Below, piece by piece: positions 10,688 through 20,000 of a stretch of DNA of 20,000 bases. The first letter of the stretch is position 1. Every line of letters begins with the position of its first letter. The notes under the pieces are model-generated. The model was not told where the DNA came from. It did no database searches and saw only the letters and a program-made list of their open reading frames with translations. The stretch is taken from the IMG/VR virus record IMGVR_UViG_3300025009_000095; one strand, given 5' to 3'. Both the position numbers and the translations under genes were made by a program. The stretch is from an uncultured virus (IMG/VR IMGVR_UViG_3300025009_000095). Lineage: Duplodnaviria; Heunggongvirae; Uroviricota; Caudoviricetes.

Positions 10688-10897
10688 ATGGAAGAGTATC
10701 AAGAAAGAGTTTTAGTTGAACAAAAAGAACTTGGTGAAAAGATTATTAAGTTAACTACATTTCTTATAAATGCTGAGAAAATGAAAGTTTTGGGAGAGCA
10801 GGAATGGAAACAACTTAATCTTCAACTTGAAGCAATGCTTGAATATCATTTAATATTAATAATTAGAATAAGAAATTATAGGGAGCCCCTTCAATGA
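10688..10897 (+). CDS. small coiled-coil protein, crAss001_48-like family
   Basis: YQERV..EQKEL.EKI.KL..F...QL.AM.EY..IL..RI pattern (from recall); SD AAGGAG. Confidence 0.6.
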   Translation: MEEYQERVLVEQKELGEKIIKLTTFLINAEKMKVLGEQEWKQLNLQLEAMLEYHLILIIRIRNYREPLQ

Positions 10898-11388: not shown

Positions 11389-11715
11389 ATGCAAGAACAA
11401 GACATTAATCAATCAGGGATCTTGCCTACTGGTGGGCACCTGCTAGTCCTTCCTGATAAGGTTGAGGAAAAGACTGCTGGCGGAATTTACCTGCCTCAGA
11501 CTACACGTGACAAGGAGCAACTTGCTGCTACAGTTGGAAGGTTGATTGCAGTTGGGCCTGGTGCCTGGACTGATCTTGATGATGGACAACCATGGGCTAT
11601 AGTAGGCGACAAGGTCAGTTATGCTAGGCATGCTGGAGTTGCGATGACTGGTCAAGATGGTCAAGATTACGTATTGATTAATGATAATGATGTACTTGCA
11701 AAATTACTTTTTTAA
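11389..11715 (+). CDS. groES: co-chaperonin GroES (Cpn10) homolog
   Basis: ILPTGGHLLVLP, mobile loop EEKTAGGIYLP, G.LIAVGPG, VGDKVSY, YVLINDNDVLA. Confidence 0.92.
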   Translation: MQEQDINQSGILPTGGHLLVLPDKVEEKTAGGIYLPQTTRDKEQLAATVGRLIAVGPGAWTDLDDGQPWAIVGDKVSYARHAGVAMTGQDGQDYVLINDNDVLAKLLF

Positions 11716-11727
11716 ATAGAGGTTATC

Positions 11728-12660
11728 ATGGCAGAAGAATTTATTAATGACATTATTGCGGCAGAGCCAGCAGTAACAACTGTTGCTCCTCCTGATCCAG
11801 CTACTGTTAAGGCTCCTGAGAAGCAAGAGGATGCTGAGGCTAGCAAGGCTACGAATGTGGGCGGAGCCCACCCGATTCCAGCTAAGACTGAGGAAGCTTC
11901 TGGTAATGAGCTGCCTGGTGTTAAGGAACTGGCTGCACAGCTTGGTTGGCGTGAAGATCATCAGGGTGAAGATGCTGTTGATGCTGTGACTTATATTTTG
12001 AGATCGAAAGATATTCAAAAATCTATGAGTCAGCATAATAAGGACTTGAAGGAACAGCTTCAGACTTTGAATGGTTCTGTTGAAGCATTGAAGAAACATA
12101 ATGAAACTGTTTATAAGGCAGAGGTAAAGAAGCTTGAGGCTGAAGTTGCTGTACTGAAGAAGGAACGTAAAAGTGCTATTGAGTTGGCTGATGTTGATAA
12201 GGTTGAAGAACTTGATAAGCAGATTGATGAGTTGCAAAAAGATATTGCTGCACCGAAAGTTGAAGAGAAAAAAACAAGTTCTACTAATGATAATCCTGCT
12301 TATGATGTATGGATAAAGGATAATCAGTGGTATTTGAAAGATGATGAAATGGCAAAGTTTGCTGATAGTGTTGCTCAGCAATATGTTGGAGCGCCGCTTG
12401 ATCGACTTTATAAAATAGTCAGAACTAAGGTACAGGAAGTTTTTCCTGATAAGTTTGAAGTAGTTAAACCAGCTAGTCAAGTTAAATCTCCTATAGGGCC
12501 TAAGAGTCCTGTTGAAGGATCTTCTGCAAAAGGAAATAGTGCTACTTTTACTAAGGCTGATTTGACTCCTGCTCAAATTAATATTATGAATCAGTTTGCT
12601 AGACTTAATATTATGAGCGAAGAAGCCTATATTAATGATGTTGCAAAGATGCAAGAATAG
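11728..12660 (+). CDS. probable capsid scaffolding protein
   Basis: 310 aa; acidic/Pro-rich N-terminus, LGW motif, long coiled coil, W..DN.WY motif; lies upstream of the capsid genes. Confidence 0.7.
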   Translation: MAEEFINDIIAAEPAVTTVAPPDPATVKAPEKQEDAEASKATNVGGAHPIPAKTEEASGNELPGVKELAAQLGWREDHQGEDAVDAVTYILRSKDIQKSMSQHNKDLKEQLQTLNGSVEALKKHNETVYKAEVKKLEAEVAVLKKERKSAIELADVDKVEELDKQIDELQKDIAAPKVEEKKTSSTNDNPAYDVWIKDNQWYLKDDEMAKFADSVAQQYVGAPLDRLYKIVRTKVQEVFPDKFEVVKPASQVKSPIGPKSPVEGSSAKGNSATFTKADLTPAQINIMNQFARLNIMSEEAYINDVAKMQE

Positions 12661-12671
12661 GAGATACGAGA

Positions 12672-13100
12672 ATGGCTGAGCAAGCAAATGCACAAGTAAA
12701 TGAAAAACCTAAGAGTGTTAATGGTGAGCAACCAAGAAAAAGAATTCCTCTTGGTACACGGAATATCTTAACTGCACCGAAAAAGCCCGGATTCGTGCGC
12801 CGGTTTGTGAATGACAAGGGTGATAGGGTTGAGAATTTTAAAGCTGCTGGTTGGAATCTCGTTGATGAAGCAGTTCAGGTTGGTGATTCGAAGATTGGAC
12901 GGGCTTCTTCTACTGGGAGTCTTGTGAATCCTCATGTTGGTGGTGGTCAACGAGCTGTGTTGATGGAGATTCCAGAAAATCTTTATAATGAAGATCGAGC
13001 AGCATCGCAAGCAGCGATTACTAGGGTTGAGAATGAGATTAAGAGAAACTCAAAAACTCCTGGTAAGGATGGTTTAGGTGGAGAAATAAGTATTTCATAA
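12672..13100 (+). CDS. conserved head-module protein
   Basis: 142 aa; PGFVRRFVND...GW..V...LMEIPE pattern seen between scaffold and capsid genes in this phage type; SD AGGAG. Confidence 0.7.
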   Translation: MAEQANAQVNEKPKSVNGEQPRKRIPLGTRNILTAPKKPGFVRRFVNDKGDRVENFKAAGWNLVDEAVQVGDSKIGRASSTGSLVNPHVGGGQRAVLMEIPENLYNEDRAASQAAITRVENEIKRNSKTPGKDGLGGEISIS

Positions 13101-13126
13101 ATTGTTAACATTAATGGAGTTATATT

Positions 13127-13717
13127 ATGGCAAATCTTGATACTCCATTCGGGTTTAAACCAGTTAAGCATTTACTGGGTACTCCCTGGAATGGAAAGAC
13201 TAATGTTTATTATGTTCCTAGTACTGATGGGACTGCAATTTTTAAAGGTGATGCAGTTAAAGGTGCTGGTTCTGCTGATGCTACTGGTAAGTTTCCTTCG
13301 GTAGCACAGGCTGCTGCTGGTGATCTTATTCGTGGTGTTGTTGTTGGTTTTGGTGATAATCCTTATACGATGCTTCATCCTGATACACCGAATCGCGATT
13401 ATCGCCCTGCGTCAACTGCTATGTATGTTTTTGTAGTTGATGATCCGTTTGTTATTTTTGAAATTCAGGAAGATAGTACTGGTAATAATCTTGCTGCTGC
13501 TCAGGTAGGTCTTTCTGCGAATGTTGTTGTAGGAACTGGCAGTACTGCTACTGGTAAGAGTGCAATGGAACTTGATTCAAGTGATACTGCTACTGATACT
13601 ACTGGTCAGTGCAAGATTTTGCGTGTCGTTGATCGTGAAGATAATGCACTTGGAACAAATTGCAAATGGGAAGTTCTCATTGTTGAGCATGAATTGTTAG
13701 TCGCAACTGACGTATAA
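13127..13717 (+). CDS. probable capsid cement/decoration protein
   Basis: 196 aa; MAN.D.PFGF.P start and V.DDP..IFEIQ motif; beta-rich; directly upstream of the major capsid gene. Confidence 0.65.
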   Translation: MANLDTPFGFKPVKHLLGTPWNGKTNVYYVPSTDGTAIFKGDAVKGAGSADATGKFPSVAQAAAGDLIRGVVVGFGDNPYTMLHPDTPNRDYRPASTAMYVFVVDDPFVIFEIQEDSTGNNLAAAQVGLSANVVVGTGSTATGKSAMELDSSDTATDTTGQCKILRVVDREDNALGTNCKWEVLIVEHELLVATDV

Positions 13718-13728
13718 GGAGATTACTG

Positions 13729-14652
13729 ATGGGAATTATTACTACTAGCAATTTTGCTAAAGATTTGGTACCAGGTGTAAAGACCTGGTTTGGGCAGAAA
13801 TATAAAGAGTATCCAATTGAGTATCTGGATATCTTTGAGAAAGGAACTTCGACGAAGGCTTTTGAAGAAGAGGTTGGAGTTACTGGTTTTGGTCTTGCTG
13901 CGGTTAAAACTGAGGGTGCGGGCGTTGCTTATGATGATCAGGAGCAAGGCTTTGTAAGTCGTTATACGCATATTACGTATGGTCTTGGTTTTATCATTAC
14001 TCGTGAGATGTATGAGGATGGTATTGCGGTGACTGTTGCGCTGCGAAGGGCAAGTGCTCTTGCTTTTTCTATTCGGCAGACTAAGGAAATGGTTGGTGCG
14101 AATGTTCTTAATCGTGCATTTACTTCTACTTATACTATGGGTTCTAATTCTGATGGTAAGGAGCTTTGTGCTACTGATCATCCGAATAAGTCTGGTGGTA
14201 CTTGGAGTAATGAACTTGCTACTGCTGCCGATTTGAGTGAAGCTGCTTTGGAACAAGCTTGTATTGATATTGGTGCTTTTAAGACTGACCGGGGTTTGAC
14301 GATTGCTATTATGCCCCAGAAACTGATTATTCCTTCTGCGCTTGAGTTTGATGCGTTTAGGATTCTTGAGTCGATTGGGCAGTCTGGATCGGCTAATAAT
14401 GATATTAATGCTTTGAGAGCTTCTAAGAAGTTCCCGCAGGGTGTTAAGGTTAATCATTATCTGACTGATGCTGATGCGTGGTTTATTGGGACTAATTGTC
14501 CTGATGGGCTCAAGTACATGGAACGGCGTGCTGATGCATTTGGAACTGAGAATGACTTTGATACTGAGAATGCAAAGTTTAAAGCTACGTTCCGTGGAAG
14601 TTTTGGTTGGTCTGATCCGCGAGGAATTTTTGGTTCTCCTGGTGCAGCATAA
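13729..14652 (+). CDS. major capsid protein (HK97 fold)
   Basis: 307 aa; KDLVPGVKTWFG, AFEEEV..TGFG.A.VK.EG, DGKELCATDHP, NHYLTD.DAWF, FGWSDPRGIFGSPGA motifs; strong codon bias. Confidence 0.9.
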   Translation: MGIITTSNFAKDLVPGVKTWFGQKYKEYPIEYLDIFEKGTSTKAFEEEVGVTGFGLAAVKTEGAGVAYDDQEQGFVSRYTHITYGLGFIITREMYEDGIAVTVALRRASALAFSIRQTKEMVGANVLNRAFTSTYTMGSNSDGKELCATDHPNKSGGTWSNELATAADLSEAALEQACIDIGAFKTDRGLTIAIMPQKLIIPSALEFDAFRILESIGQSGSANNDINALRASKKFPQGVKVNHYLTDADAWFIGTNCPDGLKYMERRADAFGTENDFDTENAKFKATFRGSFGWSDPRGIFGSPGAA

Positions 14653-14698
14653 TAAACTTGGCGTTCATAATTGAACAACCAAACTAATTTTAATACTG

Positions 14699-14726
14699 GC
14701 GTTGGTAGGACCCAATCTACCAACGC
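14699..14726 (+). other. stem-loop after the capsid gene (mRNA stabiliser or attenuator)
   Basis: gcgttggtag-N8-ctaccaacgc perfect 10-bp stem, no U-tract. Confidence 0.6.
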
Positions 14727-14749
14727 TGCTCTAAACAAGGAGTGGTAAA

Positions 14750-15154
14750 ATGGGAAAGTATTCTTTTGGTAAAAATGGTCCTACATTCAATGGTGCTTCA
14801 ATAGCTCCTGCATTTAATTCAGTTACTACTACTGCAACTCCTGCTACAGGTTCCTGTGCAGTTCAATTTGTTTTCAAAGATGTTAATGGCAATGCTCTTA
14901 TTGCTCCTGTTTCTGGGTTGCTTTATTTAAGTGAAGTAGCTACTGGACTGACAAATGATTTGGCTGATACGACTTTAGCTGTATTGACTAATGGTGCACT
15001 TAAGAATCTTGGTAGTGCTGGTCCAAGTTTGTTTACTACTACTGCTGCCGGATTATTAGGTCTTACTATTACTGCGGTTGCTGATAGTTATTGGGTTGTT
15101 TTTGTTAAACCTGATGGTTCTCTTTTGATATCTGATGTTTGTACTGTAAATTAA
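14750..15154 (+). CDS. probable virion structural (head decoration) protein
   Basis: 134 aa, T/G/A/V-rich beta-type composition; SD AAGGAG; follows the capsid gene. Confidence 0.6.
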   Translation: MGKYSFGKNGPTFNGASIAPAFNSVTTTATPATGSCAVQFVFKDVNGNALIAPVSGLLYLSEVATGLTNDLADTTLAVLTNGALKNLGSAGPSLFTTTAAGLLGLTITAVADSYWVVFVKPDGSLLISDVCTVN

Positions 15155-15166
15155 TTCAAGTATATT

Positions 15167-15206
15167 AAAGTCCATAGTAATAGATTAATAATTACTATGG
15201 GCTTTT
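15167..15206 (+). terminator. probable Rho-independent terminator
   Basis: aaagtccatagtaat-N9-attactatgggcttt stem ending in a T-run. Confidence 0.6.
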
Positions 15207-15215
15207 GGAGGAATC

Positions 15216-15524
15216 ATGAGAGCAAAAACACTAATAGCGCCAACAGAAGCTGCTGCAAAAAAGATATTAATTATTGATAGTTTAAATCTTAATGGATCAA
15301 TTTCTATTGTAGGACTTGTTACTACTGAAAGTGTTGCTATTGAGATTCCTAAAGTAGAAAATCCCGACGTAAGTACTGATACTGATTGGACACCACTTGT
15401 TTATGATGGGACTACTTATGTTTTAGATGTAGATAATAATAGGAGAAGTATTCCTTTTCGTGGGACATATAGAATTTCTAAGCCTGCAAGTAATGGTAAT
15501 GCATTTGGAATAGGGTTTGAATAA
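15216..15524 (+). CDS. hypothetical, probably structural, beta-rich protein
   Basis: 102 aa; SD GGAGG; TAATG coupling to the next gene. Confidence 0.7.
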   Translation: MRAKTLIAPTEAAAKKILIIDSLNLNGSISIVGLVTTESVAIEIPKVENPDVSTDTDWTPLVYDGTTYVLDVDNNRRSIPFRGTYRISKPASNGNAFGIGFE

Positions 15525-15949
15525 TGTTTAGCTCGCCATTTATAAATCCATTTAATAGTCCTTTTATAGGATTGAATCGGTATGGGAGTTCTTACGCCAC
15601 AACCTTCGGTAGTTATGCAGCGGTGCCCCTTGATACGGTTGTTATGTCGAGGACTATTCAGACACAGGCAACAGGCGCAATCAGCATCACGGCGGACCTG
15701 TCCGGGACCGGAGAATATCAGATTAACGGGGGGCTGTGGACTTCGGCTCCGGGGACTGTTGTCCCAGGAGACTTGATACGGGCGAGGCTGACCAGCTCGG
15801 CGCTGTATGAAACGTTGTCTGCCCTTGAGATAACCATTGATGGTGTTGCTGATACGTTCAGCGTGACGACCGTAGTGGAGAGCATTGACCTGTTCGCGCA
15901 CTATACTGGTGAAGAGAACTACACCGATACCAACCATTATACGGATTAA
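15524..15949 (+). CDS. protein with N-terminal xPF repeats and an Ig/cadherin-like beta-sandwich
   Basis: SPF-INPF-NSPF N-terminus; EYQINGG.WTSAPGTV..GD.IRARLTSS..Y.T.....TIDGVADTFSVTT resembles repeats of bacterial surface proteins; YT-repeat tail. Confidence 0.6.
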   Translation: MFSSPFINPFNSPFIGLNRYGSSYATTFGSYAAVPLDTVVMSRTIQTQATGAISITADLSGTGEYQINGGLWTSAPGTVVPGDLIRARLTSSALYETLSALEITIDGVADTFSVTTVVESIDLFAHYTGEENYTDTNHYTD

Positions 15950-15952
15950 GAT

Positions 15953-18079
15953 ATGAAAAAAATATTGTTAGTAGCGGCACTGTTACTCGTAGCTTCTCCA
16001 GTTTTTGCAGAACAAGGGGACATCACGGTTGGGACCGCTGAAGCAAGCGCCAGCCTTGATACGAACTTTGCTAATGCTCAAGCAAACTTTACTGAGTTGT
16101 ATGGATGGGTAGACCAGGGGGTAAAATCTACGAATTCGCCAGTCTTTGCAGGTGTAAACCTTGGAGTTGCTTCAACCACAACAGGACTGCTTAACTTCTA
16201 CGGCAACACCAAGGCATTCCCTTTCGGGCTGTTCTCCCAAGGTGCTGACTCTCCTGGGATAGGACTTCGCCTTCCTTCTACAATGCCAACCGTGACATCA
16301 ATTTTTATAGCTGATACTAATGGTTATATGGATTATCTCGATCCAGCAGGGTTTGCCGCAGCTCTCACCTCTGACCAGAATTACGTGTCAGACGCGCAGA
16401 TTACACTGCTCGAAAATACATCCGGGTCGAACACCGGAGATCAAAGCGGAGCAACAGTAGCTTTTGCCGATACTGATAACCTATTCACAGCGACGATGAT
16501 CGGTCCGGCAATAGAGGAATTTAACGACTCCATCAATTCAGGCGTTCCAAATAGCACCGGAGCAAAGGTGCATTGGTCGCAGATCGCAGGGATGCCGGCC
16601 GTTTTTGCTGATGGTACGGATGATGGAGCTGCCGGAGAAGGAATATCCCACGCTACTTCTGATGGGGCATATTACGCCTCGAAAGACGGAGCGTGGGCCA
16701 GCCTTACAGGTCTATATCTGGCCGCAGGTGGCACTGCGGCAAACTCAGCTCTTCTCGAAAATCATGCTGCCAGTTACTTCCAAACAGCACTTACTGATCC
16801 ATTAGTCAGAGCAGACATAGACGATATTCCGGTAAACAGTGAGATCACTGGTCCAGTTTCTTCTAACTGGGCGTATGACCACGGCGCTGCCGCTGACCCA
16901 CATATCGGTTATGCACTTGAGAGTGCACTCGGCACAGCATCATCGCGCAACGCAGAGGATACCCTAACCGATGGGAGCAATCTCCCAGATGGTGCGGCGA
17001 TCAAAGCGTATGGTGATGCAAATTGGGGCGGCGGATCTCTCCCGGATGGCACAGCAACCAACCAGCTTCTCCAGTGGAGTGGAACAGCGTGGGCACCAGT
17101 TAGTACAATCGCAGGTATAGGGAATATCTCAGGGGCGGGATCATATAATAAAGTAACGGTGACAGAGCCTGCAACAGGCGCGACACTCACCTTGGCTGAT
17201 GGTTCAACGCTGGCTACATCAGGGGCGTATTCACTTACACTGACTCAAACAGGCAACAGCAACGTAACATTACCGACCGCAGGCACTCTGGCAACGCTTT
17301 CCGATATCCCGGCTGGTTCTCTGCCAACCTGTTCCGTAGATACCCAGACGGTTGAGTGGGATACTACAACAAGCGATTGGATATGTGTTGATACGGTCAG
17401 CATTACAGCGGGAACGGGCATCACAATTAGCTCTGGTGCGATTTCTGTAACAGCCAACACGTACCAGCCACTTGACAGCGATCTGACCTCTATCGCCGCA
17501 CTCACTACTAATGCCGTGGGCTTGAGCCTCCTTGACGACACGTCAACCTCTGCCCTGAGAACATCCATCGGCATGACAGCGAACGGGTCTTCTCTGGTCG
17601 TTGCGGCTGATTACGCAGCCATGCGGACCTTGCTTGATCTGGAGGCAGGAACCGACTTCAACTCTTATGATGAGGATTTGACAGACCTCGCAGACGGTTC
17701 ACTTTCCGGCTCAAAAGTAGGCACCGGAATAAACGGCGATAACGTGACATCCGGGACAATTGCTGATGCTCGGATTGCGTCAACAATCACCCGCACAGTA
17801 GCATCCGGCACGTCCGCCCTTGGTACCACAGAAATAGCTTCAGGCGCGTGTGCTTCTGCCGTGACGACCTCCGCTACTGGAACCGCAACGACTGATGTTA
17901 TCAATTGGGGATTTAATGGCGATCCTACAGGCGTGACAGGGTATGCACCGACAGCGAACGGGATGCTGACAATTATTGCTTATCCGAGTGCGGATAATGT
18001 GAATTATCGTGTCTGCAATTTAACCGCTGCCGCTATTACTCCCGGAGCTATTACTTTAAATTGGAGAATCCAGCGATGA
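15953..18079 (+). CDS. signal-peptide-bearing tail-fibre-like mosaic protein
   Basis: MKKILLVAALLLVASPVFA|EQ signal; fibre-like motifs AANSALLENHAASYF, HGAAADPHIGY, YQPLDSDLTSIAAL, AAMRTLLDL; A/T/S/G-rich. Confidence 0.7.
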   Translation: MKKILLVAALLLVASPVFAEQGDITVGTAEASASLDTNFANAQANFTELYGWVDQGVKSTNSPVFAGVNLGVASTTTGLLNFYGNTKAFPFGLFSQGADSPGIGLRLPSTMPTVTSIFIADTNGYMDYLDPAGFAAALTSDQNYVSDAQITLLENTSGSNTGDQSGATVAFADTDNLFTATMIGPAIEEFNDSINSGVPNSTGAKVHWSQIAGMPAVFADGTDDGAAGEGISHATSDGAYYASKDGAWASLTGLYLAAGGTAANSALLENHAASYFQTALTDPLVRADIDDIPVNSEITGPVSSNWAYDHGAAADPHIGYALESALGTASSRNAEDTLTDGSNLPDGAAIKAYGDANWGGGSLPDGTATNQLLQWSGTAWAPVSTIAGIGNISGAGSYNKVTVTEPATGATLTLADGSTLATSGAYSLTLTQTGNSNVTLPTAGTLATLSDIPAGSLPTCSVDTQTVEWDTTTSDWICVDTVSITAGTGITISSGAISVTANTYQPLDSDLTSIAALTTNAVGLSLLDDTSTSALRTSIGMTANGSSLVVAADYAAMRTLLDLEAGTDFNSYDEDLTDLADGSLSGSKVGTGINGDNVTSGTIADARIASTITRTVASGTSALGTTEIASGACASAVTTSATGTATTDVINWGFNGDPTGVTGYAPTANGMLTIIAYPSADNVNYRVCNLTAAAITPGAITLNWRIQR

Positions 18080-18744
18080 TCAGGAAATTACTCTTTCTCA
18101 CTCTCGCTTTCTTTCTCCCAACTCTGACCTTTGCGGGGCAGGGGATGGGGCCGGGGCCTGGCTTTAAGACGTATTCTGCTGCGTCGTCCGGGATATCAGA
18201 TGATTTCTCGGCTGATACATCTGCAAATTATACCGCAATAACAGGGACTATAAATATTGCTGCTGGGACAATCGGCGGTGATTCGAACTGGCAGTACAAC
18301 TATTTTTACAACAAGACAGCTACAGGCTCAAATGATCATTTCGTCCAGGCTGATCTCGCCCCATCTGAAGCCACCTCTGCGGGCGGGGCGTTGCTGTTGC
18401 TTCGCAGTGATGGAACCACTGGATATATAGTCAATGTAACAAGCGGCGTTGAAAGGATATATCTTCGCAGGTTTAATGGTGGAACGGTAACTGATATTGA
18501 CTGGATATCAACAATTGATGCAATAGCCAATCAGGTTTACAGGGTTAAGGTTTCTGTCAGCGGCTCGACCTTTAGTTTTTATATCGACCATAATTCAGAT
18601 GGTGATTTTGATGATGCAAATGAATCGCTCGGGACAAAAACAGATGCTACCTACTCGACCGGCCAGTACATCGGCATAGGCGCAAACCGTGGCGCAGATG
18701 GAGTTGATTACCGAGGCGATAACCTCTCTGGTGATGCATTATGA
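18076..18744 (+). CDS. secreted beta-sandwich (ConA lectin/glucanase-like) protein
   Basis: ATG at 18076 (ATGA overlap, GGAG upstream); signal MIRKLLFLTLAFFLPTLTFA|GQ; Ca-binding-like loop IDHNSDGDFDDANE. Confidence 0.6.
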   Translation: MIRKLLFLTLAFFLPTLTFAGQGMGPGPGFKTYSAASSGISDDFSADTSANYTAITGTINIAAGTIGGDSNWQYNYFYNKTATGSNDHFVQADLAPSEATSAGGALLLLRSDGTTGYIVNVTSGVERIYLRRFNGGTVTDIDWISTIDAIANQVYRVKVSVSGSTFSFYIDHNSDGDFDDANESLGTKTDATYSTGQYIGIGANRGADGVDYRGDNLSGDAL

Positions 18745-20000
18745 TCCTCATCTTGCTCGTTGGCCTGCTGCTATTCCCCACTGATGCGTGGTCGGTCGAT
18801 TATCACATCGGGCCAGGACAGACATATACTACCATCGGTGCCGCGCCGTGGTCCTCGCTTGTGGCAGGAGACAATATCTACATCCACGCCAAAGCCGATC
18901 AAGCCCCGTATTATGAGCATATCTATATCTCTGCTGTCTTGCAAGGTACGGAGGCAAACCCGATAGACATTGTTGGAGTGCCTGACGGTTCTGGGAACCG
19001 CCCTATTATTGACGGAGCCAATTCAACCACAGGCCCAAACTTTGCGCCCTACGGTGATCCTCAGTATCACTCTGCATTGGGGCTGCTTTTTTTTGGACCA
19101 TCTACCGGGGATGCCGACTCGTCACCGGCATGGGTTACAGTCAGCAACCTGGAAATCAGAAATTATACAGACGTTACCACCACAGACGAAAACAGCCTTA
19201 CACGCAATAGCTACAGCGCCTCGACTGTCTATTTTCAGGGTGGTGTCAATATCACCCTCGATAATCTGATAATCACCGAGGGCACTGATGGTATTTTCGC
19301 CAAGGACGGCTTGTCAAACGTCGAGAATATAACCGTAAAAAATTGTTACATCCACAACAACGGCGTAGTCGGAGACTATCTCTATCATAATATTTACACT
19401 GAGGTTGAAGGGATTATTTTTGAGGGAAATTATTTTGGTCCGCCGATATCTGGCTCCCCTGGGAACAATATTAAGGACCGCTCGTCTGGTTTTGTTTTTC
19501 GCTATAACTACGTCCACAACGGAGGACACCTGCTTGACTTGGTAGAGTGTCAGGATGAGTGTGTTGATCATACAGCAGATCTTAGATGGGATGATGCCTG
19601 GGTATACGGAAACATTTTTTATGCAGGCGGAGACGGTCCAGGATATCTCGTCCATCTCGGGACAGGTGATACGGGGGCGAACCCTGATTACTGGCGGAAA
19701 AACCTTTATTTTTACCACAACACAGTAGTGGTTGACCGTGACCAGGCAGAAACATATTCCATTTCGCTATTCCAACTATCTGGAAGCGATCAGAACGTTT
19801 ACATGGATAACAACCTGATTCACGTCGCTCCCTCCACGACAGGGCAACCAGTAACGGAATTTGTCCTGCAATACGATGGGTCTGGCTCAACTTTTGCGGA
19901 TGGAAATATTACAATGGGGCCAAACTGGATATCTCCAGGGTGGCTCAATACGAGGACAGGCACTACCCTGGTTGGAACCATAACCGGGGCAGCGGACATC
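18741..20000 (+). CDS. secreted right-handed parallel beta-helix protein (putative polysaccharide lyase/depolymerase), 3' truncated; not in ORF track
   Basis: Open for 420 codons to the window end; ATGA overlap; signal MILILLVGLLLFPTDAWS|VD; YHIGPGQTYTTI, LVAGDNIYIH, RPIIDG, NITVKNCYIHNNG, HNIYTE, GNNIKDRS, FYHNTVV Asn-ladder repeats. Confidence 0.8.
   Translation, partial: MILILLVGLLLFPTDAWSVDYHIGPGQTYTTIGAAPWSSLVAGDNIYIHAKADQAPYYEHIYISAVLQGTEANPIDIVGVPDGSGNRPIIDGANSTTGPNFAPYGDPQYHSALGLLFFGPSTGDADSSPAWVTVSNLEIRNYTDVTTTDENSLTRNSYSASTVYFQGGVNITLDNLIITEGTDGIFAKDGLSNVENITVKNCYIHNNGVVGDYLYHNIYTEVEGIIFEGNYFGPPISGSPGNNIKDRSSGFVFRYNYVHNGGHLLDLVECQDECVDHTADLRWDDAWVYGNIFYAGGDGPGYLVHLGTGDTGANPDYWRKNLYFYHNTVVVDRDQAETYSISLFQLSGSDQNVYMDNNLIHVAPSTTGQPVTEFVLQYDGSGSTFADGNITMGPNWISPGWLNTRTGTTLVGTITGAADI

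What the first reader, a model, noticed from the sequence alone, without database searches (positions are those of the whole stretch)
15953..20000. Operon of three Sec-signal-peptide proteins (fibre, lectin, beta-helix) in the virion module
Seen: three consecutive genes joined by ATGA overlaps at 18076-79 and 18741-44. Each starts with a signal-peptide-like leader (MKKILLVAALLLVASPVFA, MIRKLLFLTLAFFLPTLTFA, MILILLVGLLLFPTDAWS; the third has no basic n-region). They lie just after the capsid genes. Established: tailed-phage fibres and depolymerases normally fold in the cytoplasm and start with a virion-attachment domain, not an export signal. Inference: the phage may export its receptor-binding apparatus to the periplasm and attach it at or after lysis. 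Alternatively it may display an adhesin, lectin and depolymerase set on the infected or lysogenic host surface. This is the best candidate for an undescribed system here.
Basis: partly seen in the sequence, partly recalled or inferred. Interest (0 to 1): 0.82.

Follow-up and report, generated by a model that had tools for sequence, protein, structure and literature searches.

The report
Exported phage fibres with docking tags
A groundwater phage, like many uncultured phages, puts bacterial secretion signals on a fibre, sugar-binding proteins and probable sugar-cutting proteins that carry short matching tags, so this host-recognition gear probably matures outside the cytoplasm and clips onto the virus particle late, a route not established for tailed phages.

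Summary
Observation confirmed. Three signal-peptide (SP) genes follow the head genes of a probably lytic, podophage-like phage. An identical record shows two more SP-like genes and a lipoprotein beyond the window. The assembly is sound and there is no att site.

ORF15 is a mosaic fibre ending in a conserved ~97-aa beta-sandwich with an invariant Cys pair. Among 139 loci with this domain, 100 of 111 complete fibres have SPs (control 12 of 372). The next gene overlaps in 125 of 133, has an SP in 112 and a PGPG tag just after cleavage in 79. Some use Tat leaders. Three leaderless fibres lost Cys and have leaderless partners. Other fibre tips pair with other tags, and one relative fuses fibre and lectin.

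Export is very likely. Joining the virion at lysis is inferred (0.58), helped by seven SP-bearing Cellulophaga phage proteins annotated as structural by MS/MS. SignalP could not be run; SP calls come from my own rule.

Ten literature searches found no description.

The parts
15167..15205 (+). 15-bp-arm hairpin between the 134-aa and 102-aa genes; may attenuate read-through into the cassette (inferred)
   Evidence: inverted repeat I6; not listed by the terminator scan
15216..15524 (+). ORF13, 102 aa, leaderless, conserved in relatives; candidate capsid-side adaptor (inferred)
   Evidence: (cluster of 12)
15524..15949 (+). ORF14, 141 aa, leaderless; first ~20 codons conserved, then a swapped domain with weak virion-structural/fibre similarity; module joint at ~15585; candidate cytoplasmic docking partner for the exported fibre (inferred)
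   Evidence: phrog_14394 E 8e-4; phrog_4924 E 0.01; composition break 15590
15953..16009 (+). ORF15 Sec-type signal peptide (19 aa, VFA/E cleavage by the -3/-1 rule)
   Evidence: a leaderless homologue P0155 starts with Met at the equivalent place
16010..16105 (+). ORF15 mature N-terminal motif shared with leaderless fibre-like proteins; candidate virion anchor/trimer start
   Evidence: 77% over 30 aa to P0155; hit to leaderless L089 protein, whose N-terminus weakly matches phrog_6942 tail fibre and phrog_677
15953..18079 (+). ORF15, 708 aa exported mosaic fibre
17786..18076 (+). Conserved C-terminal tip domain (CTD-A), 6-strand beta-sandwich, invariant Cys633 and Cys688
   Evidence: (pLDDT 91.7)
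18076..18135 (+). ORF16 signal peptide (20 aa, TFA/G)
18136..18165 (+). PGPG tag at the mature N-terminus of ORF16; co-occurs with CTD-A; proposed docking peptide
18190..18744 (+). ORF16 ConA/galectin-fold lectin-like domain, closest solved fold CBM66
   Evidence: (Foldseek E 6e-9)
18741..20000 (+). ORF17 (514 aa in full, ends 285 nt past the window): SP, right-handed beta-helix, short C-terminal tail shared in pattern with ORF19
   Evidence: PF13229 above cut-off; 88% to L090

Best explanation
An optional, late-expressed adsorption appendage built outside the cytoplasm. SHOWN by sequence: fibre, lectins and enzyme-like proteins carry cleavable-type export leaders; the fibre ends in a conserved two-cysteine tip; the next gene carries a tip-specific N-terminal tag; cargo domains are swapped around these fixed joints. 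INFERRED: the host Sec (sometimes Tat) system exports the chains during late infection, signal peptidase I frees the N-terminal motifs, and the tip disulfide forms in the envelope. The fibre trimerises, the tagged lectin caps its tip as gp38 caps gp37, and enzymes join through short C-terminal tails. When lysis opens the inner membrane, the complex meets finished particles and binds through the fibre N-terminus, probably to leaderless ORF13/ORF14 on the head. It would then bind and cut host surface glycans, in addition to the leaderless podophage-type tail.
For: Export: 101 of the best 120 CTD homologues have SPs; 100 of 111 complete fibres, 112 of 133 next genes and 62 of 89 third genes in loci, against 12 of 372 controls. 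RR-type (Tat-like) leaders replace Sec leaders in 4 partners and 5 third genes. Both Cys are kept in 134 of 139 tips; the three clearly leaderless fibres (L144, L153, L181) keep 1, 1 and 0 and have leaderless partners. Tag pairing: PGPG in 50 of 75 partners against 3 of 350 other SP ORFs, those 3 being the same partners called from another start; two other tip classes pair with two other tags; L011/L016 fuse fibre and ORF16-type lectin with neither tip nor tag; tip plus leader plus tag travel as one DNA block. Virion link: position among structural genes in sipho-, myo- and podophage-like contexts; tip fold resembles tailspike C-terminal domains; leaderless twins of the mature N-terminus; 7 SP-bearing proteins of two cultured Cellulophaga phages are annotated 'structural protein, MS/MS'.
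Against: No virion proteomics, host or expression data for this phage. SP calls are from my own rule, not SignalP. The cassette also holds exported proteins unlikely to be virion parts (an SP nuclease, lipoproteins) and lies next to lysis genes. 11 of 41 MCP relatives have no SP gene between MCP and the conserved downstream Cys-rich gene, and relatives have a separate leaderless tail module, so it is not the essential adsorption device. MS/MS of purified phage can pick up exported non-virion proteins: Lom and Bor were classed as contaminants in phi24B (10.64898/2026.04.10.717836, passages). The Cellulophaga proteins were not shown to be homologous to ORF15-17 (no cultured phage matched the CTD or ORF17). 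Tip fold matches are weak (best Z 6.8). Fibre PHROG matches for ORF15 itself are E 0.09-0.18.
Confidence: 0.58

Rival explanations
1. Exported but never virion-bound: the tagged fibre-lectin-enzyme complex acts on the infected cell's envelope or surrounding matrix, masking or stripping receptors (superinfection exclusion, easier progeny release) or digesting biofilm polysaccharide.
For: All export and tag evidence fits equally. The cassette sits with an SP nuclease, lipoproteins, holin-like genes and the endolysin. Cargo includes a GH5 hydrolase, a fucosidase, an M28 peptidase and GDSL hydrolases. It is optional.
Against: Mature N-termini match leaderless fibre-type proteins. No membrane anchor is evident in ORF15-19 by inspection. 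In L084 and L083 SP fibres follow the ejection/internal-protein genes, where podophages keep tailspikes (convention recalled). Virion MS/MS annotation exists for analogous Cellulophaga proteins.
Confidence: 0.25
2. Lysogenic conversion: a surface adhesin set for the lysogen, working like Bdellovibrio MAT fibres.
For: SP-bearing phage-like trimeric fibres are displayed on a bacterial surface in Bdellovibrio (PMC10769870, passages). The block is compositionally foreign.
Against: No PF00589 or PF07508 match in 5 of 5 near-complete relatives. No prophage closer than 64% MCP identity among GTDB genomes. Genes are coupled within the late operon, with no promoter excess. CTD not found in 401 + 401 sampled genomes (no positive control).
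Confidence: 0.07
3. The leaders are not export signals: they stay on as hydrophobic anchors at the inner membrane, or translation starts downstream and assembly is cytoplasmic.
For: ORF17's leader has no basic residue; ORF16 has an ATG at codon 24 behind a G-rich stretch. Leaderless pairs exist, so the fold can work from the cytoplasm.
Against: Small residues dominate the -1/-3 positions ahead of the tag. Tat-like leaders substitute. Met at that tag position occurs in only 32 of 76 tags, and an ATG near the cleavage site in 15 of 100 fibres. ATGA-type coupling points at the leader start in 125 of 133 partners. Cys loss tracks leader loss.
Confidence: 0.07
4. Host genes beyond a prophage end, or a chimeric assembly.
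For: G+C and GC-skew shift at about 15.5 kb.
Against: Unitigs 14983-17077 and 14995-16966 bridge the shift at even depth in two samples of one study. An identical virus record spans 13000-20000. The same slot holds similar cassettes in many relatives. Atlas clusters nearest the CTD are 94-100% viral.
Confidence: 0.02

Closest known systems
T-even (S16) long tail fibre gp37 trimer capped by gp38 adhesin (PMC6851490, passages)
   Same: A fibre gene is followed by a separate adhesin gene whose conserved N-terminal part would dock on the fibre tip, with variable distal cargo. 5 of 65 partners carry Gly_rich_2 (PF21722).
   Different: gp38 docks by a three-helix bundle with three tryptophans on a beta-helix tip. 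Here the tip is a two-Cys beta-sandwich, the adaptor is a ~10-residue PGPG peptide exposed by cleavage, and both chains have export leaders.
Bdellovibrio MAT (mosaic adhesive trimer) fibres (PMC10769870, passages)
   Same: Signal peptide plus mosaic phage-like fibre with a variable or beta-sandwich tip.
   Different: MATs are chromosomal, cell-surface proteins with a conserved ~130-aa beta-rich domain after the SP and often a C-terminal S74. Here the genes are viral, the N-terminus is variable, the C-terminus is the conserved part, ORF15 has no S74, and a tagged partner follows.
Cellulophaga phage phi18:3 gp085-087 and phi10:1 gp091-094 (GenBank KC821620, KC821618)
   Same: Runs of SP-bearing proteins between structural and lysis genes, annotated as structural by MS/MS; in phi10:1 a leaderless small structural gene precedes them.
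   Different: Bacteroidota-type leaders (Gln after cleavage); no CTD-A match. The records do not remark on the leaders, and I did not see the source paper.
C-terminal lectin-like domains of tailspikes (Kp32gp38, phi297 gp61, Pam1, K1 lyase) and H-type lectins
   Same: Best structural neighbours of the tip domain: Z 6.8, rmsd 3.0, 84 aligned for 9qrm_B; Atlas leads K1-lyase_C, Gp53-like_C, H_lectin at 0.78-0.80.
   Different: Scores are below the level that shows kinship; the invariant Cys pair, high conservation and tag coupling suggest an adaptor rather than a variable receptor-binding tip.
Exported proteins of known phages: SP endolysins (PMC8951688, passages), Lom/Bor, filamentous phage coat proteins (recalled)
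   Same: Phage proteins that use host export.
   Different: Lysis or conversion proteins, or a virion built at the membrane; none is a fibre or lectin of a tailed phage.

Membership tests
Sec/SPI-exported proteins | N-terminal n/h/c leader with small residues at -3 and -1 | tested here: met
   Own rule; control 2 of 372 and 12 of 372. ORF17 lacks a basic n-region.
Sec/SPI-exported proteins | SignalP call and demonstrated cleavage/export | not testable with these tools
   No SignalP or proteomics available.
T-even gp37/gp38 adhesin system | Separate adhesin gene directly after the fibre gene | tested here: met
   125 of 133 overlap at -4/-1
T-even gp37/gp38 adhesin system | Three-tryptophan helical attachment domain on a beta-helix fibre tip | tested here: not met
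   ORF16 N-terminus is a short low-confidence Gly/Pro peptide; tip is a beta-sandwich
T-even gp37/gp38 adhesin system | Physical binding of adhesin to the fibre tip on the virion | not testable with these tools
   Needs structure or pull-down.
Bdellovibrio MAT fibres | Signal peptide on a mosaic fibre | tested here: met
Bdellovibrio MAT fibres | Conserved ~130-aa beta-rich domain after the SP | tested here: inconclusive
   Mature N-termini of CTD fibres are highly variable; no direct comparison with a MAT sequence was made
Bdellovibrio MAT fibres | Chromosomal gene of a cellular predator | tested here: not met
   Phage late operon; nearest Atlas clusters 94-100% viral
Phage tailspike depolymerase (ORF17) | Right-handed beta-helix | tested here: met
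   PF13229 30.6 bits, cut-off 25.9
Phage tailspike depolymerase (ORF17) | N-terminal virion-binding domain, cytoplasmic trimer | tested here: not met
   Beta-helix region follows the leader; no PHROG match
Phage tailspike depolymerase (ORF17) | Polysaccharide cleavage | not testable with these tools
   Needs assay.
CBM66 / ConA-like lectin (ORF16) | ConA/galectin beta-sandwich fold | tested here: met
   Foldseek 4b1m E 6e-9, TM 0.51/0.61, model pLDDT 67
CBM66 / ConA-like lectin (ORF16) | CBM66 family sequence membership and fructan binding | not tested
   Only 19% identity; ligand unknown.
Prophage moron / lysogenic conversion | Temperate phage with integrase; own promoter | tested here: inconclusive
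   0 of 5 relatives with PF00589 or PF07508; plasmid-type lysogeny untested; the window's own full genome not held

The most novel reading that the evidence does not exclude
Many tailed phages of diverse hosts use a second assembly line in the host envelope: fibres, lectins and glycan-cutting enzymes are exported by Sec or Tat, oxidised and cleaved, snapped together by a code of short terminal tags matched to fibre-tip classes, and loaded on the finished particle only at lysis. This would give a plug-and-play multi-enzyme appendage and end the rule that all tailed-phage parts are made in the cytoplasm.
Probability: 0.5. Interest if true: 0.9.

Novelty: new variant of a known kind. Interest (0 to 1): 0.76.

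Why it matters
Tailed-phage particles are taken to be built wholly in the cytoplasm (established knowledge, recalled). A widespread exported fibre-lectin-enzyme module would mean either an unrecognised extracytoplasmic step in virion assembly or an unrecognised way for phages to remodel the host surface. It predicts host factors (SecA, Tat, signal peptidase, Dsb) for infectivity and explains many unannotated SP genes in environmental phages. The tip domain with its PGPG tag is a compact marker and a possible modular display system. The question is directly testable in cultured Cellulophaga phages. If virion attachment is shown, the route itself would be categorically new.

Tried and rejected
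Complex prediction of three CTD copies with the 32-aa tag: no verdict (score 0.03, mark 0.32), no evidence either way. Host: not identified; best cultured MCP match 55%, best GTDB match 64% in probably mis-binned contigs, and only short chance-level DNA matches besides one MCP-like contig in 401 genomes of one phylum. CTD not found in 5, 401 and 401 genomes (no positive control). No cultured phage matches the CTD or ORF17; ORF15 matched one 58-aa piece. Foldseek of the CTD gave nothing at E<=0.001. ORF19 has no Pfam or PHROG match; Atlas neighbours are unnamed. Cysteine parity of large cassette genes did not separate SP from non-SP (even in 10 of 17 against 12 of 26). att site or tRNA near 15580: none. 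No RNA holder listed. Promoter and terminator counts are at chance level. Names given by sources were uninformative. Literature: ten searches found no description of SP-bearing fibres of tailed phages; the library lacks most subscription papers, and I read no supplements. Passages of 10.1101/2020.04.01.020958 and PMC13412088 were not on point; the latter found no Tat motifs in its Klebsiella phages. Scan notes: none by CTD sequence or by PGPG/tag words.
Full report
CONTEXT. The window is the head module of a tailed phage: terminase small and large subunits, a 723-aa probable portal, GroES, probable scaffold and major capsid protein (MCP). It occurs in groundwater metagenomes of one study. Of 346 MCP relatives in IMG/VR the best 80 are 81-97% identical; the best cultured match is 55%. 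Two complete-length relatives have a leaderless tail module with head-closure-like proteins and 1.9-2.2 thousand-aa proteins and no tape-measure or sheath match, so I read the clade as podophage-like (inference). None of 5 near-complete relatives has a tyrosine integrase or serine recombinase match. The host is unknown.

OBSERVATION. The three ORFs, overlaps and leaders are as reported. SignalP was not available, so I wrote a rule (hydrophobic core, -3/-1 small residues). It flags ORF15-17 and no head-module gene, and fires on 2 of 372 homologues of leaderless head-module genes, or 12 of 372 when six starts are allowed. An identical virus record (G001) extends the operon: ORF17 is 514 aa, then ORF18 (LamG-like, E 3e-5; leader from Met8 by eye), ORF19 (568 aa, SP, no family) and a lipoprotein-like ORF.

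NOT AN ARTEFACT. Composition shifts at about 15590. Unitigs span 14983-17077 and 14995-16966 at even depth in two samples, one of which may be the source. DNA homology with 10 related loci stops at 15585-15589, about 21 codons into leaderless ORF14. This is a module joint behind a conserved N-terminal peptide, not an att site.

THE FIBRE. ORF15 is mosaic. Its last ~97 residues (CTD-A) are conserved: 557 hits; of the best 120 (one is ORF15 itself), 109 have the domain within 10 residues of the C-terminus and 101 have an SP. Two cysteines are invariant in 75 aligned sequences. The model is a six-strand beta-sandwich (pLDDT 91.7) whose best neighbours are tailspike C-terminal domains and H-type lectins, weakly (Z 6.8 at best; nothing at E<=0.001). 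Nearest Atlas clusters are 94-100% viral. The mature N-terminus matches leaderless P0155, which begins with Met where ORF15 would be cleaved (77% over 30 aa); 27 of 35 hits to this region have SPs. PHROG fibre matches for ORF15 itself are only E 0.09-0.18.

EXPORT IS UNDER SELECTION. I kept the best 80 of 99 viral and 80 of 161 metagenome loci, which reduce with earlier loci to 139 distinct tips including the window's own. 100 of 111 complete fibres have an SP; 134 of 139 keep both Cys; the next gene overlaps by -4 or -1 in 125 of 133 and has an SP in 112; third genes have one in 62 of 89. Of the 11 complete fibres not flagged, three (L144, L153, L181) are clearly leaderless; by eye two have leaders my rule missed and six look like wrong starts. 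The three leaderless fibres keep 1, 1 and 0 Cys and have leaderless partners, while 1 of 100 SP fibres lost a Cys. Four partners and five third genes have twin-arginine leaders instead (Tat consensus recalled; a sixth regex hit, L108, does not look like a leader). Replacement by a second export route and joint loss of leader and Cys are hard to explain unless the proteins are exported.

A TIP-TAG CODE. In 79 of 133 loci the partner has PGPG a few residues after the predicted cleavage. In the first set this held for 50 of 75 partners but 3 of 350 other SP ORFs, which are the same partners called from another start. ORF16's cargo has a ConA/galectin fold (CBM66, E 6e-9; model pLDDT 67, first 52 residues low). 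The same lectin, about 80% identical, carries a different tag in L090, where the fibre has a different tip. That second tip class (L090, L021, L047) and a third (L012/L022, L018/L019/L024) each go with their own tag, although the more distant third-class locus L088 does not show it. L011/L016 fuse fibre and ORF16-type lectin with no tip or tag. Tip, leader and tag form one conserved DNA block (17783-18182), and homology to L090 starts at 18190, just after the tag. Partner cargo includes Gly_rich_2, LamG, F5/8 and GH5 (16 of 65 had a Pfam hit); third genes include beta-helix, fucosidase, GDSL and M28 domains. Enzyme-like genes share short C-terminal tails within a genome group: one tail on four genes in L090, L012, L018 and L021, another on ORF17 and ORF19 here. 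Binding is inferred from these patterns; 54 of 133 partners lack PGPG.

POSITION. CTD fibres lie among structural genes of siphophage-like (L106), myophage-like (L107) and podophage-like (L084, L113) contigs (a hand-picked set of 61 proteins). In this clade the cassette sits between head and lysis genes, with lipoproteins and an SP nuclease. 11 of 41 MCP relatives have no SP gene before the conserved downstream Cys-rich gene, and 17 of 43 large cassette genes have SPs, the rest being leaderless. It is accessory.

CULTURED PRECEDENT. Earlier scan notes pointed to Cellulophaga phages. I checked: phi18:3 gp085-087 and phi10:1 gp091-094 pass my SP rule and are annotated 'structural protein, experimental MS/MS'. 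I did not see the source paper (one search found none). Such data can include exported contaminants (Lom and Bor in phi24B), and these proteins are analogues, not shown homologues.

MECHANISM. Most likely (0.58): late export, cleavage and oxidation in the envelope, tag-guided assembly, and loading on particles at lysis, perhaps on leaderless ORF13/ORF14 at the head. Export itself I put near 0.9. Rivals: non-virion action on the host surface or matrix (0.25), lysogen adhesin (0.07), leaders not used for export (0.07), artefact (0.02). A diderm host, trimers and head attachment are assumptions.

COMPARISON AND NOVELTY. It works like the gp37/gp38 fibre-adhesin pair (PMC6851490, passages) and resembles exported Bdellovibrio MAT fibres (PMC10769870, passages), but fails defining features of both. 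Ten searches found no paper on SP-bearing fibres of tailed phages. Beyond search listings I read passages of six papers and no supplements; most subscription papers are not held. The scan has noted the export pattern on other DNA (8 notes); none was found for this tip or the tag. I rate it a new variant of a known kind, interest 0.76; proof of virion loading would make the route categorically new.

Noticed in passing
window 11389-11715: GroES co-chaperonin inside the head module between portal and scaffold, conserved in the clade (48 members); phi18:3 also carries cpn10 genes near its structural genes.
   Followed up: no
window 11728-15524: Head genes have extreme codon bias (C at third position 2-6%) against 23-31% in the cassette and 16-27% in terminase and portal.
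   Followed up: partly
L084:5759-7759: SP placed in front of an N-terminal domain that looks like a P22-type tailspike head-binding domain (resemblance recalled; PHROG gave only phrog_26190, E 5e-5) followed by a beta-helix, directly after DNA-ejection genes.
   Followed up: partly
L081:8696-9163 and relatives: SP-bearing nuclease (phrog_452) conserved in the cassette next to lysis genes (8 of 8 members with SP): a secreted phage DNase, perhaps for progeny release.
   Followed up: no
L258:259-1965 (-), past the window end: ORF19, 568 aa, SP, no Pfam or PHROG match; Atlas neighbours at 0.95-0.97 are unnamed viral and Myxococcota clusters. An uncharacterised exported family.
   Followed up: partly
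L011, L014, L127, L130, L155, L159, L168 third genes; ORF18 N-terminus: Gly-rich, beta-strand-like terminal tails of about 15-25 residues on unrelated exported proteins; possibly a further docking-tag class.
   Followed up: no
window 18526-18564 (ORF16): DxDxDG-like acidic loop conserved in most ORF16 homologues, possibly calcium-binding (motif recalled).
   Followed up: no
window 14750-15154 slot in relatives: The gene after MCP alternates between unrelated-length forms (134, 312, 324 aa) in phages with about 92% identical MCP: swappable capsid decoration.
   Followed up: no
window 10688-10897: 69-aa crAss001_48-like protein (PF21825, E 2e-13) after the portal.
   Followed up: no
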